Source of the DNA: Paraspadella gotoi
Taxonomy: Eukaryota > Animalia > Chaetognatha
Assembly: GCA_051294375.1 (NCBI GenBank)
Contig: CM119265.1
Location: forward strand, 21,638,278 to 21,702,277
Length of the DNA stretch: 64,000 nt
Reading direction: 5' to 3'
Part shown: one piece after another, positions 27,001 through 36,000 of the stretch
Numbering within the stretch: position 1 is the stretch's first letter
How the letters are laid out: each line of letters opens with the position of its first letter
Notes under the pieces: generated by a model
What the model was told of the DNA's origin: nothing
Databases searched by the model: none
What the model saw: only the letters and a program-made list of their open reading frames with translations
Made by a program: the position numbers and the translations under genes

Positions 27001-30000
27001 GTCGGCCAGCCGAATGAAGCTGGTCAATCGTCGGCAGTGACTGCGCTTGTTAGCTAGAATGAGGGGATATTCGAGTTATAAAATTATAAAATTGCCCAAG
27101 AAATAATCCAGACATCCTTATACAGATTTAAATTTAAAGATCTATCCAATATCCACCGTTACCTTGCTCGGTGTATGTCATTTTGTCAGGGGTTTCTCCG
27201 TACAGATCCATTTCGCTGGGAGGTTCGTCGGGCGGACCGTCCGGGTTTTCGGGGTCGTAGTAATAGTCGTCGGGGGTAAAGTTTGCTTCCAGCAGCGCCG
27301 TCCGACAGGCGCTGCGCACCACCTGAGAAGGCAAATAAGTGAGGAATTTATTTACTTTTTTTACATTCACATGACGATCAAATCTTACTTCTTTGACAAG
27401 ATCGCGAAACTCCATGAGTCTGCCCGAGACTTGATTGAGTTGGCCGAATTGCGCGTCGCGGAATTCGTCGAGTGTGTAGGTATGTCCTCTGAGAATCTTG
27501 CACAACCCCATGTCGCTGATGCGGTAACACATTTCCCGCACGTTTAATAGGGCCGGCCGCAGCGACTGTAAAATTATCAAGATATTGATATAAATAACTG
27601 CGAAATTATATCTATAAAAAGCTTTTGACTTAGATTTGGTATTTTTTTCCAATTGATTAACATTTCCTCAATCCTCTTAAATCATCATACGATTAATAAA
27701 TTAATTAGTCTATCAATTTCTTTCTTTCTTTTCTTATTTCTTTCCGTTCATTTCATTCCAGCGCACCGTATTCAGCACAAACAGATTCTCGTTGAGCGCC
27801 TTCTTGCAATTCTGAATCTTTTTTGTTCTGACGTTGGAACGCCAGACGTGAAAGGCTTTCCACTTGCGGAAGAGGGCAAAGGTCGGAATTTTGATGAGTT
27901 GCGTGAAGAAGCGATACTCTTGTTCCCATCTTTCTAGTTCCGTGAACTCGGTCTCGTCACCGACTCGCGAGTGAGACACGCCTTTATTTTAAATTAAGAG
28001 ACAGAGTAGTAGCAAGTCGACGTTAACATCTCTTCTATGCATGTGACTTTTGTTTTTTTCTAACATCGACGATCGATAAGACGAGACATCTTTTTTTTGT
28101 TTATAATTAAGAAATTAAGAAGTTTTTTAACTCCTACCTGTTTGACTTATTGTGTAGAAGTCTTGATTGTTGATGTTATTGTGTGCAACTACTTTGAGAT
28201 TATATGGGTGATATTTGATAGACGACTTCGGGACGGCGGGCGTCAAATAGAGAAATCCCAATTTCGGATTTTCTTTGATGATCCTTACGATCTCCAGTGG
28301 GTCATTCAGACCTTCGTAAACTGTCGTGTCTAAGATAAATAACAGTATATTTTGTGAGACGCCAGCTTATCCCGTTCATTTTCTCAGTTTCTGTCTTACG
28401 AAAAGTATAAGATTTCAATTAACAGTCATTAATGACCTCTTAACTACATGCGAAGATTATTTTGATTTCCTGATATCCAATTATAGCAAAGGTTCCATTG
28501 ATGTTACTAAATTGAAACATTCACATTCCCCAACCACTTCTTTTTTCGATATCACCAAATTCAGATTTTCTTTTTTAAAATAGAAAACTTCATAAACTAA
28601 TAAATTTTGAAAAAAAATTTCTCGAGAAATTCTTCTCATCGACTTCAACATGAACCTTAACCCGAGATATGATCTGAACCATGGCCCTACTTCAATTAAA
28701 CTTGATTAAGTAACAAATAAAAGCTTTAACTTTTTAGGGGAGTATTTGTATTTTTTAAAAATACGAAATAATTGTTGTATATGGTGAAATGTAGATTCTA
28801 ACAGGTGAAATAGACAAAAATATCAATTGTGAATATAAAATGAATTCTTTGAAAATTTATTTAAACAATGAGTTTTCGCATTAATAATTGAGCAGCATAA
28901 AAACTCAGTAAATTCTCAAACGATAATACAATTTAAAAATAAACGCATAAAGTTGTGCAAGAACAATTTTACAAGGAAGAATCTAGTGGAATGTGTATTA
29001 TTTTCAAAAGTTAGAAATAACAACTAAATTATAGATGTGAATGATTAAAAAACTAAAGCTATTACAAACGAAGAAGTAGTAAACATTGGTTGGTATGTTA
29101 AACAAGCAATTATTAAAATTTTGAGTAGAAACATAAAAGTCATGTAGTTACAAAAAGTAAAAGGAATATAAACATAGGATGGCATCCTAGGGACTAGTTA
29201 TCTGGTTTTAATGTAATCTACTAAATTTGATCAATGTTGAAAGAATGTTTTCAAGCTCAGTTAAATTTTTGGCATAGCATATGCCACTTGCATATCCGTC
29301 GCTACGCCGTTGCTGAGGTACTTTTCATTCACATCCGGGGAGGAAGCCATCGCCACTGGTGGCATGACTGCTGCCGTAGATGCTGCAGCGGCTGACATTC
29401 CTGGCGCTGGCAGCGCCGGCATTTGCCCTGGAACAGGTTGTGAGACTTGAGAAGCTTGACTGGTTTGGCCGTAATAAGCGGATGGGGACATAGGAGGAGA
29501 AGGGTAATAGAAATAGACCGATCCATTGCTGGGTATCATCTGTGGAGTCGGAGAATATTGCTGCGGCGTCCTTAAGCTCGGCGACATTGGGGTCTGATAC
29601 ATCGAGGTTTGAGATCCCGGCGTGACCGTCGTCGGTGCCTGGGGGAATCCGTAAAACGCGGCTGCCGGAGAGTAGTAAGCGGGATGGCTCTGCATCGACG
29701 GGGACGTCGGGAAAAACACGGGAGCAGTAGTCGTGGCGACGGGACTATACAAAGTCGGGCTATAAATGTTTGGGATACTGCCACTTTTTCCGCTCGGAGA
29801 CAGCGGCGACACTAGCCCCGGCGTCAGGGAGTACGGATCGACTGCAGGAATGTTCAGCGGTTGAGGAATCGCACCGAAAGACTGCGAAGATCCTAATGGA
29901 GCTTGTACGTAGCTATTTGTGTTGATTTGCTCCGGTTCCGGGGACGAATTCATCCCGGTTAAAACGGAATTCATGTCGTCAATGGAGCATTGGATGACTT

Positions 30001-33000: not shown

Positions 33001-36000
33001 CGACGGGTAAGGGCTTTTTCTCACGATCCCCATCACGATCAAATCGACATTACCCTTTCCGAATTCTCGACGCGAAGCTGAGGAAAAAAGACGCTATGAA
33101 AAACCCGCGATTGTTGGTGAAACATCATCATCTTAGTGATGATCACCGGGAAGAGGTCGACGATCCATTTTGCAATGACCGTCGCGTTAACGGAAATCAT
33201 CGATCGCCGATAATGGAGCGTCGACGTCGGCGTCGCATCGATCGAGAAATTGGGAAACATTAGAGAGGCGATCATATTTTCTACTGGTATTCGTTTCATT
33301 CGAGTTTTAGAAGAGAAATCGAGAGAGAAGAGAGAGAGAGAGAGAGAGAGAGAGAGAGAGAGAGAGAGAGAGAGAGAGAGAGAGAGAGAGAGAGAGAGAG
33401 TGAAACTGGAAAAACAGTCCCGCAAAGCTCCGGAGGGTTTTGTATTAGTTCACAGATTCACAATCTTCTTCTTTTCCCGATTAGGAATAAAAAAGAAAGA
33501 AAGGAGTGTCGGGGGAGGAAGGCAGAAATAATCCTCGTCACAAATAATCTGGGGGATATCATAGTCGGCTAAAAAATACTAGACAGAAAGAAAGAAGCGG
33601 AAAAAGCAACTCGCAGTTAAAATCTACGACTTCCCGCCCGCTCAATCTCGCATCGCACACTTGGCGTCAAGACTGACTCGATTCATTCAAACTTCGTGTG
33701 CGATCTTGTTTTTGTTTTTTTGATCGAAAAAAGTAACACGTCATCCGTGAACCGCGATTCAAGGAAAACACGAGCTCTTCCTCCGATTCCAGAGGATTTT
33801 ATAAAAAATGTGAAAGAGTTTGAGTACTATTCAATAAATGACTAAATTTGGTTTGCTAAACATTTTTAAAGAACTTAGAAATTTCATTTTAATTTCTTTC
33901 TATCTTTGAATACGTCTCTTTGAAAGAAAGAATTATAATAGAAAAAAAATCCAATTATCATTAACAAATCAAAAACAAAACTAGTTCGACTAGCTCGTTA
34001 TTTTTACGACTGATTTGAAGCGCAGACATTTATGCGACCCATCGGCAGGCATTAATTAAATTTTAAATTTTCAAAATTGTTTCCCCGTTTCTGATTCCAA
34101 GAATCTCGTTCGTCCGAATCGTCGCATTGATTCTCGTCGGTTAAATTCCTGAAAAACGGGTTAGATCTGTTTCTTCTCGACTCGAGGATCGATTGCGGAT
34201 AGGACTGACATCGACGTTGACGATGACTCCCTCTCGCGTCGCGGGAAAGAGAAGAGAGATGATGAGATCGAATTTGTCAATGAGGGAATGGGTGATTTGC
34301 CATTGAGCAACGCGATTATTGGGATATTTGCAGTCTTACTCGTCTTGATTTATCATCGAGGAATAGAAAGCAGAAACCATTGTTTCGAGACAATGGGTCG
34401 GCCAACAGGTAGCAGGAGATGATATCGGTACTAATTCTGGACGACCCTCGGTGAGAGTTCAACCAAAGAAGAAAAGAAGAATTAAAGGTCGATCAGTGGT
34501 CAAAAGACAGAAACAAACGGAAAGAGAGAGAGAGAGAGAGAGAGAGAGAGAGAGAGAGAGAGAGAGAGAGAGAGAGAGAGAGAGAGAGAGAGAGAGAGAG
34601 AGAGAGAGAGAGAGAGAGAGTTACTCTGTCGCCTTCGATATTGCCATCGCCGTCGCCATCGAAACGGCAACCGGCTGAGATGAGAGACCCGATCAGGTCT
34701 GAGGACGAAGACGATAAAAGGCGTCCGCCTCAATGGAGCGATGGGACGAGAAAATATCAGAGGTCGACGAGTTGACAACCTGTAGAGCGGGATTTCTTCT
34801 TCTCTCGATCGGGAATACCTGGAAAAAGTCGAAAGAAAAAAAAGAAAACAAATTCCCTTCGATGCCGTAGACACAGATGCGTCCTTAGAAGTCAGAACGA
34901 TGAAGGGATGATGTTTTAAGGAGGAACGTCAAGTCAGAGGGTCACATGCAGAGTTGCAGACACCGTGGTGTACGAACGCGTGGCCCTAGGATTGACCCCT
35001 GTCCCTATCAGAGAATGTGGGTCTATTTGTCCTTTGGTCAATCAGCTAATTTATTCAGAAGGGCAAAACTTTTCGGTACCGAGTCAGCGATTCAAAATTG
35101 ATGCAAATTGTTGCGACTTTATTGACTTGACTCGCCCGTATTTTACGTTGTGAAATAATGAAAGTGAATTAAAATAAAAGACCCGCATCGAGAAGATGCG
35201 ATGAGTCGATAATCACGTTATTTTTGACAATCAAACACAATTAGCCGAAAATTCTTCGGTCAATACTTTTATTGCCTTTTTGTGTAAATCACAACTTGAC
35301 TACTGCCGCGCTAACTTAATTAACAGCCAGCAGTTCGATCATGAGATTTAAATAATAATATTACTAAACCAGTAACTATTTTACTATTCTTCTTATTGGT
35401 ATAGCTTATTTTGACACCCACTCTCTTAAACTGACATTATTTTAAATTCAATTAATGATGGCCAACGAGGAATCGTGTCAAAATATCCGTGAGCCTTTCT
35501 CGAAAATCAGGTTTGAATCTCCGCGTCAATTAGCAGGAAAAAGGGGGAGTGTAACGAGATCGCGACGAAGAAAAAACCACCGCTCGATAAGATAAACCGG
35601 TTTTATCTCCCAGTTCAGCATAAATCTTCCAAAGCGAATCTCTCTCTCTCTCTCTCTCTCTCTCTCTCTCTCTCTCTCAAATTCCGGTTTTTAACGCTGC
35701 CTCGGGCCACTAAAACTCGTAGATCGAGAAAATGAAACGATTACGATTCATCTATAACTTTTCACTGCCTGAAAATATTAATGAGGAATTAAGCTGACTT
35801 GATCAATGAAGCGACCAGTTCCACCAGTTCCAAAATCTTAGAGAAATGATTTAGGTGAAATTGAGAAAGCGATTAACTTACCCTCGATCGGTAGTTGCGA
35901 CGGGGCCGAAGTGAGGGGTTTTGGCGTAGTAGTATCTGTGTGTGACTGACCCCAGGCGCGTTTGGGCCTCTTCGACTCATCGTGCTTCGCCGACGACCAA

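What the first reader, a model, noticed from the sequence alone, without database searches (positions are those of the whole stretch)
28330..35881. Intronless ESRP nested on the same strand as its host
A 2.5-kb uninterrupted CDS in a region where most genes are intron-dense suggests retroposition or wholesale intron loss. Same-strand nesting means DNAH6 transcripts must read through the ESRP poly(A) signal (AATAAA candidate ~28856-28861), so the two genes may interfere or be coupled. Vertebrate and fly ESRP/fusilli make nuclear and cytoplasmic isoforms by splicing near the C-terminus, and no such exon structure is evident here.
Basis: partly seen in the sequence, partly recalled or inferred. 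Interest (0 to 1): 0.7.

Follow-up and report, generated by a model that had tools for sequence, protein, structure and literature searches.

The report
Splicing regulator nested in dynein intron
A gene for the epithelial splicing regulator ESRP, with no intron in its protein-coding part, lies inside a long intron of the ciliary dynein gene DNAH6 on the same strand; both are transcribed, and the ESRP copy likely arose as a reverse-transcribed duplicate, a known kind of gene-within-gene arrangement.

Summary
The nesting holds. An uninterrupted 837-codon ESRP frame (31774-29261, minus) lies between DNAH6 exons. DNAH6 homologues match exons at 38145-37616 upstream and 28329-28138 downstream. A spliced RNA contig of DNAH6 leaves exon 28329 with 935 more bases that do not lie on ESRP. 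The intron joint itself was not seen. ESRP has its own RNA contig, unspliced across the whole coding region.

Corrections: the gene is probably not intronless, since an 852-base 5'-UTR intron is inferred. The region is not uniformly intron-dense: GALT has one coding intron. RNA runs 72 bases past the proposed AATAAA.

Additions: three intron sites inferred from other invertebrates' ESRP proteins are absent, and so is the fourth RRM. Short matches in RNA and DNA point to a second ESRP gene, with a weak hint that it keeps an intron. DNAH6 also hosts two opposite-strand genes.

Best reading: an old retrocopy, kept by selection, in an intron-rich host. Intronless, same-strand nesting is the usual combination in flies. 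Interference or coupling is untested. No earlier finding of this scan matched.

The parts
29261..31774 (-). ESRP coding sequence, one exon, 837 aa: RNase T/DEDD-like domain, three qRRMs, Pro/Ser/Tyr-rich tail with YPSPPMSP motif; no fourth RRM
   Evidence: RNA and DNA contigs without gaps
31262..31645 (-). RNase_T-like domain (residues 44-171), just under the Pfam cut-off
   Evidence: 23.2 bits, cut-off 24; PDB 7wrn match
30854..31081 (-). qRRM1 (residues 232-307)
30518..30769 (-). qRRM2 (residues 336-419); an intron site inferred for other invertebrates maps to 30719/30718
29999..30235 (-). qRRM3 (residues 514-592); an intron site inferred for other invertebrates maps to 30116/30115
28784..32201 (-). 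ESRP main exon as covered by one RNA contig (427 bases of 5' UTR, CDS, at least 477 bases of 3' UTR); true 3' end unknown
   Evidence: X9 record 25
32202..33053 (-). inferred 852-base 5'-UTR intron of ESRP (GT...AG)
   Evidence: contig breaks at 32201; bin-depth arithmetic; joint not among the rows shown
33054..33264 (-). inferred upstream 5'-UTR exon of ESRP (211 bases in the contig); transcription start unknown; 9 upstream ATGs in the 638-base UTR
28856..28861 (-). AATAAA candidate; RNA extends 72 bases past it
28330..35881 (-). DNAH6 host intron, 7552 bases, GT...AG, phase 1; acceptor supported by RNA depth, donor predicted
28138..28329 (-). DNAH6 exon downstream of ESRP (human residues 181-238)
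35882..36026 (-). predicted DNAH6 exon upstream of the host intron
   Evidence: splice signals and frame; only a weak collinear match, E 1.5
37471..37553 (-). predicted DNAH6 exon
   Evidence: splice signals and frame
37616..37718 (-). DNAH6 N-terminal exon (KPEYI motif)
   Evidence: profile E 1.3e-6
37817..37918 (-). DNAH6 N-terminal exon (LEPL motif)
   Evidence: profile E 7.2e-6 for the piece that holds it
38027..38145 (-). DNAH6 N-terminal exon
   Evidence: inside the profile match (model residues 60-167)
38331..38476 (-). predicted DNAH6 second exon
   Evidence: splice signals and frame
38567..38803 (-). predicted DNAH6 first exon (ATG 38592; 5' end from contig length only)
   Evidence: arithmetic
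1..27980 (-). remainder of DNAH6, residues about 275-3547 of a 4150-aa homologue, running off the window
   Evidence: tblastn; RNA joints
24631..25060 (+). small spliced gene nested on the opposite strand in a 1633-base DNAH6 intron; no Pfam match
   Evidence: (record 24)
13390..14520 (+). EF-hand gene with introns, nested on the opposite strand in a DNAH6 intron of about 3.4 kb (ends approximate)

Best explanation
An ESRP gene with a single-exon coding region lies on the same strand inside a 7.5-kb intron of DNAH6 and is transcribed as its own mRNA; it is likely an old retrocopy that landed in the intron, was kept by selection and likely gained a promoter and a 5'-UTR intron there. Shown: the open frame, its ESRP identity, DNAH6-homologous exons on both sides, a spliced DNAH6 RNA contig that leaves out ESRP, and a separate ESRP RNA contig. 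Inferred: the 5'-UTR intron, loss of at least three ancestral coding introns, and a second ESRP gene in the same genome that may be the intron-bearing parent. How it would work: in DNAH6-expressing cells polymerase passes the ESRP 3' end and the intron is spliced out whole; having no coding introns leaves few splice sites to trap the host, which is the usual account of why same-strand nested genes tend to be intronless. The protein would act as an ordinary three-qRRM splicing regulator with one fixed C-terminus, without the spliced nuclear and cytoplasmic forms of mouse and fly.
For: Frame and identity. Nesting. RNA: (records 23 and 25). Lost introns: among 120 short homologues, 10 of 80 with the RRM3 GVHM motif run into unrelated sequence starting with V (a GT donor) right after it, and 9 of 64 start just before the RRM2 FF; 19 of 132 proteins break at the RRM1-RRM2 linker; the window reads through all three sites (several of these rows are close kin, so perhaps 3-4 lineages). 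Age and selection: four unnamed full-length relatives at 69-78% identity share the same architecture and form a clade with it. Second gene: an X9 contig of depth 201.6 lays only about 48 bases at the RRM2 linker and about 83 bases in RRM3; its C>T at 30766 recurs in DNA run X5 at depth 42.3 (local single-copy contigs 44.8-50.5) and in run X11. In X5 only the 48-base piece is accounted for; the missing piece straddles the inferred RRM3 intron site. Precedent: 71.5% of same-strand nested genes in D. melanogaster are intronless (PMC5174743).
Against: No parent gene was retrieved; the second gene rests on bin arithmetic and two short pieces laid at 80% likeness, and no such paralogue turned up among 120 long and 120 short homologues listed. 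No poly(A) remnant follows the gene (no run of 7 A in 29261-28330), though none is expected at this age. Intron loss is not special to ESRP here: GALT has one coding intron, FAM92 a 209-codon exon, and the DNAH6 exon itself lacks an intron that 65 of 97 homologues appear to have. If the organism is a chaetognath, its genome paper found no excess of intron-poor duplicates (PMC12460157). Gene structure and position in the relatives are unknown. The promoter was not located.
Confidence: 0.55

Rival explanations
1. This is the ordinary ESRP orthologue (or a DNA-level duplicate) that moved into the DNAH6 intron by rearrangement and lost its coding introns by recombination with its own cDNA, as part of lineage-wide intron loss; no retroposition event is needed.
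For: Other genes in the window are intron-poor, DNAH6 lost an intron too, a 5'-UTR intron remains as 3'-biased loss would predict, and ESRP is single-copy in most non-vertebrate animals (PMC5703972).
Against: All coding introns are gone while the host keeps dozens. The hint of a second ESRP with an intron in RRM3 fits a parent and copy better.
Confidence: 0.27
2. ESRP is not an independent unit but an alternative terminal exon of the DNAH6 (or FAM92-DNAH6) transcription unit, sharing promoter and 5' exons like RBM12 and CPNE1, or released from a polycistronic RNA by trans-splicing; poly(A) choice would decide which protein is made.
For: Same strand; strong acceptor at 32202; ESRP start not located; FAM92's probable stop (38946) lies about 150 bases from the inferred DNAH6 5' end, within the 250-base operon criterion of PMC12460157. 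Precedent: PMC2568002.
Against: The ESRP contig's upstream 211 bases are placed inside the intron, not on DNAH6 exons. About 2.6 kb of CpG-rich intron sequence lies upstream and could hold a promoter. That the organism trans-splices is only inferred.
Confidence: 0.12
3. The nesting is an assembly artefact: ESRP was joined into the DNAH6 locus by mistake.
For: DNA run X5 has no cover at 28586-28724 (the tool notes that a hole proves nothing), three CT repeats of 40-98 bases lie between 33321 and 35678, and continuity there was not tested.
Against: X5, another sample, gives contigs 27723-28585, 28725-29147 and 29120-33300 with 0 differences; four samples not marked as source hold 91-97% of the words of 27000-33200; DNAH6 exons flank ESRP in the right order and frame. 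An error would need two false joins inside one intron.
Confidence: 0.04

Closest known systems
ESRP1/ESRP2, fusilli, sym-2 family (PDB 7wrn, 7vki, 7vkj)
   Same: RNase T-like N-terminal domain, three qRRMs, YPSPPxSP motif.
   Different: Single-exon coding region; no fourth RRM, which Lingula, Priapulus, Limulus, Daphnia and Glandiceps have (59 of 124 homologues also show only three); no alternative C-terminal exon seen; probably duplicated, whereas most non-vertebrates have one copy.
Same-strand intronless nested genes and intronic retrogenes of Drosophila and mammals (PMC5174743, PMC11694760)
   Same: Internal gene in the host's longest intron, near the host's 5' end, without coding introns; host with several nested genes.
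   Different: Those are typically young, tissue-specific duplicates; this is an old, conserved developmental regulator of 2.5 kb inside a motile-cilia gene.
RBM12 inside CPNE1 (PMC2568002)
   Same: An RRM-protein gene on the same strand as a longer gene, whose poly(A) signal the longer transcript must pass; RBM12 qRRMs also match the window protein weakly. That RBM12's coding region is one exon inside a CPNE1 intron is recalled, not read.
   Different: RBM12 shares promoter and 5' exons with its host; here the only upstream exon placed lies inside the intron, and sharing is untested.

Membership tests
ESRP/fusilli | N-terminal RNase T/DEDD-like domain joined to qRRM1 | tested here: met
   PDB 7wrn residues 12-317, E 1e-74; Pfam RNase_T 23.2 bits, cut-off 24
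ESRP/fusilli | three qRRMs closer to ESRP than to hnRNP F/H | tested here: met
   named hits in the top 120 are ESRP/fusilli or unnamed RRM proteins
ESRP/fusilli | fourth C-terminal RRM (common in invertebrates, not universal) | tested here: not met
   absent from the protein, from its four relatives and from all 2623 six-frame pieces of the window
ESRP/fusilli | nuclear and cytoplasmic isoforms by alternative splicing near the C-terminus | tested here: inconclusive
   one unspliced RNA contig over the CDS, but contigs drop rare forms; neither the mouse nor the fly signal peptide of PMC5478600 is seen on reading the translation
ESRP/fusilli | binds GU-rich RNA and regulates epithelial splicing | not testable with these tools
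   inferred from family only
nested gene (host and internal pair) | whole gene inside one intron of another gene | tested here: met
   DNAH6-homologous exons on both sides; host RNA contig leaves it out; the joint itself and the ESRP start were not seen
nested gene (host and internal pair) | own promoter, independent of the host | not testable with these tools
   contigs cannot show starts
retrogene | ancestral coding introns all absent | tested here: met
   three sites inferred from break points in homologous proteins; no gene structures of homologues were read
retrogene | intron-bearing parent elsewhere in the genome | tested here: inconclusive
   short matches in RNA and DNA; no genome held
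retrogene | poly(A) remnant and target-site duplication | tested here: not met
   no A run of 7 or more behind the CDS; duplications were not searched; both decay with age
retrogene | new genomic position relative to the ancestral locus | not tested
   two scans of metagenome contigs found no related locus
DNAH6 (host) | collinear match to full-length axonemal dynein heavy chain 6 | tested here: met

The most novel reading that the evidence does not exclude
The ESRP copy was fixed inside DNAH6 because the arrangement works as a switch: when ESRP is transcribed and polyadenylated in non-ciliated epithelial cells, it cuts off the dynein transcript, so that epithelial identity and motile ciliation exclude each other at one locus. 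In sea urchin, loss of Esrp gives ectopic long cilia (PMC5703972), and a second ciliary gene, FAM92/CIBAR, lies directly upstream on the same strand.
Probability: 0.07. Interest if true: 0.8.

Novelty: new member of a known kind. Interest (0 to 1): 0.4.

Why it matters
ESRP is a splicing regulator whose own gene is normally intron-rich, single-copy outside vertebrates, and spliced into nuclear and cytoplasmic forms. A conserved copy with a one-exon coding region, probably beside a second copy, is a natural test of whether those forms can be dropped or divided between paralogues. It also gives a clean case of an old regulator nested on the same strand in a motile-cilia gene, where single-cell data could test interference directly. 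The architecture itself is of a well-described kind, so the interest is moderate unless coupling is shown.

Tried and rejected
No whole genome is held, so the paralogue and synteny could not be searched. RNA was laid only on 21000-33300; the upstream exons, the host-intron joint and 33300-35881 have no read evidence. The run search listed no holder on record as RNA; X9 is treated as RNA because its contigs skip GT-AG introns. Depths were used only to place pieces, not to rank genes. The uncovered 28586-28724 in X5 is no evidence either way. Two scans of metagenome contigs, with the ESRP alignment and with the DNAH6 exon, found no locus (430 and 593 pattern matches, none confirmed). A PDB search with the frame 38119-37742, which includes an intron, gave only chance hits. 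A 63-residue search for longer DNAH6 proteins returned just two short genomic fragments. Searches used the GALT frame on the wrong strand; corrected. The 30155/30750 joint was rejected as an ESRP splice form: ends AA..AT, other letters, different depth. An RRM4 exon between ESRP and DNAH6 was rejected. The tree (61 of 121 sequences: window, 24 named, 36 unnamed; quick method, careful search unfinished) joins the clade to the rotifer Adineta at SH-aLRT 90 with a long-branch warning and holds no named chaetognath; 'chaetognath-like' is therefore only my inference, about 55%. Literature searches that found no report of this arrangement: Esrp+fusilli+intron+evolution (3 papers), Esrp+amphioxus+sea urchin+RRM (17, 0), Esrp+intronless (49, 17 papers; listing seen, one read in passages), retrogene+nested+intron of+dynein heavy chain, chaetognath+Esrp, DNAH6+nested gene. 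The gene table of PMC12460157 was too large to read and may bear on paralogues and nesting; its three readable supplements do not mention ESRP or DNAH6. Four look-ups in earlier findings gave nothing that bears on this.
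Full report
The observation. The minus strand holds an open frame from ATG 31774 to stop 29261, 837 codons. It matches human ESRP1 across the RNase T-like domain and qRRM1 (PDB 7wrn, E 1e-74), and its second and third qRRMs also match ESRP1 best. A DNA contig from another sample covers 29120-33300 with no difference, and an RNA contig covers 28784-32201 with no gap. The coding region is therefore one exon in DNA and is expressed unspliced. Run X9 is labelled RNA only by guess, but its contigs skip GT-AG introns, which DNA would not.

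The host. The exon at 28329-28138 matches human DNAH6 residues 181-238, so about 180 residues must be encoded upstream. I took DNAH6 homologues that contain this exon (95 hits), cut out the N-terminal parts of 15, and built a profile from the 10 longest. Against 2623 six-frame pieces of the window it hits two well, 37745-37596 (E 1.3e-6) and 38209-37745 (E 7.2e-6); the next is E 0.7. The spliced model scores 58.1 bits against at most 6.2 for 500 shuffles. Seven upstream exons from ATG 38592 join through GT-AG introns in one open frame. The DNAH6 RNA contig has 1127 bases upstream of 27980; 192 are the exon at 28329, and bin depths leave no room for the other 935 anywhere on 21000-33300, ESRP included. 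The model predicts 724 coding bases plus 211 of UTR. The joint 35882/28329 was not seen directly, and the two exons nearest the intron lack clear homology, so the donor position is predicted. The nesting does not depend on it.

The ESRP contig is 3629 bases; 3418 lie at 28784-32201, which begins at an AG acceptor. Placing the other 211 at 33054-33264, behind a GT donor, predicts a bin depth of 54.35 against 54.4 observed, so an 852-base 5'-UTR intron is likely. The AATAAA at 28861 is the only one in the 3' region, but RNA runs 72 bases past it; contigs cannot show ends. DNAH6 is intron-dense, yet GALT has one coding intron, FAM92 has a 209-codon exon, and DNAH6 itself lacks an intron that 65 of 97 homologues appear to have inside this exon. 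DNAH6 also hosts an EF-hand gene and a small spliced gene on the opposite strand, in introns of about 3.4 and 1.6 kb.

Lost introns. No gene structures of homologues could be read. Proteins called on genomic fragments break where introns lie, however. Ten of 80 short homologues run into unrelated sequence beginning with V straight after the RRM3 GVHM motif, 9 of 64 begin just before the RRM2 FF, and 19 of 132 proteins break at the RRM1-RRM2 linker. Several rows are close kin, so these are a few lineages. The window reads through all three sites. Sea urchin Esrp has introns, and mouse Esrp1 has 16 exons.

Relatives and age. Four unnamed full-length proteins are 69-78% identical; all else is 47% or less. 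They share the missing fourth RRM and the replacement tail and form a clade on a long stem that joins the rotifer Adineta with a long-branch warning. An arrow-worm identity is my inference at about 55%; no named chaetognath was in the tree. Loss of RRM4 is not unique: 59 of 124 homologues show three domains. Whether the relatives are intronless or nested is unknown (searches found no loci); four genomic fragments of relatives do have an intron edge at the same host position.

A second ESRP. One X9 contig, of depth 201.6, lies on only about 48 bases at the RRM2 linker and about 83 in RRM3, with other letters. Its C>T at 30766 recurs in DNA run X5 at about single-copy depth and in run X11, where an 80-base ungapped piece spans the lineage's lengthened linker while the loose end, read by eye, encodes a different upstream sequence. 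In X5 the extra depth accounts for the 48-base piece but for only about 13 bases of the RRM3 piece, which straddles the inferred intron site. This suggests a lineage-specific duplicate that keeps that intron. It rests on bin arithmetic at 80% likeness and is a lead, not a result; no such protein was found among the homologues listed.

How it likely works. Shown: two separate RNAs from one strand, the host skipping the guest. Inferred: ESRP has a promoter in 33264-35881; DNAH6 polymerase passes the ESRP 3' end and the intron is removed whole. The best account of origin is retroposition into an existing intron followed by gain of a 5'-UTR intron (0.55). Rivals are relocation with intron loss in place (0.27), a shared or polycistronic unit as with RBM12 and CPNE1 (0.12), and misassembly (0.04). 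No chimeric GT-AG joint is among the 15 listed of 36 joints. Nothing here shows or excludes interference.

Comparison with what is known. In D. melanogaster 71.5% of same-strand nested genes are intronless (PMC5174743, passages); in mammals same-strand nesting is nearly as common as opposite-strand and favours long 5' introns (PMC11694760, passages). Mouse and fly make nuclear and cytoplasmic ESRP forms by splicing (PMC5478600, passages). ESRP is single-copy in most non-vertebrates, and its knockdown in sea urchin gives ectopic cilia (PMC5703972, abstract, passages and a supplement search). Chaetognaths have many duplicates, trans-splicing and operons, but no burst of retroposition (PMC12460157, passages; its gene table could not be read; PMC2481426, passages). 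PMC2568002 was seen as abstract and passages. Six searches found no report of an intronless or nested ESRP.

Verdict. The feature is real and expressed, and it is a new member of a known kind. Interest 0.4: an old splicing regulator without coding introns, probably duplicated, inside a motile-cilia gene is worth a note and is cheap to test with a genome and long reads. The bold reading, a built-in switch between epithelial identity and ciliation, is not excluded (0.07) and would deserve 0.8.

Noticed in passing
window 13390-14520 +: EF-hand gene with its own introns nested on the opposite strand in a DNAH6 intron of about 3.4 kb.
   Followed up: partly
window 24631-25060 +: Small spliced gene with a hydrophobic C-terminal part and no Pfam match, nested on the opposite strand in a 1633-base DNAH6 intron; RNA contig in X9.
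   Followed up: partly
window 38946-40460 -: FAM92/CIBAR, a ciliary BAR-domain gene, lies directly upstream of DNAH6 on the same strand; its probable stop is about 150 bases from the inferred DNAH6 5' end, an operon-like spacing, and an acceptor-like AG lies near 38798.
   Followed up: partly
window 59880-61019 +: GALT with a single 69-base coding intron; 276 residues lie in one exon.
   Followed up: yes
window 28138-28329 -: This DNAH6 exon lacks an intron near its residue 45 that 65 of 97 homologues appear to have; four close relatives lack it too.
   Followed up: yes
window 30073-30155 and 30750-30797: Short matches of a different ESRP-like transcript and DNA contig: probable second ESRP gene in this organism.
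   Followed up: partly
window 31775-33264 -: The ESRP 5' UTR (638 bases in the contig) holds 9 upstream ATGs, one opening a 109-codon frame.
   Followed up: no
window 45844-48156 +: A 770-codon uninterrupted acidic frame with an N-terminal hydrophobic segment and no Pfam match.
   Followed up: no
window about 21900-22350 and 23700-24340: High-copy short interspersed repeats inside DNAH6 introns (contig depths in the thousands); similar text by eye near 15720-15800.
   Followed up: no
window 41800-45300 -: Fragmented stretch that looks by eye like a decayed transposon; not tested.
   Followed up: no
window 62610-63281 +: Piece of a PARP catalytic-domain gene (Pfam PF00644).
   Followed up: no
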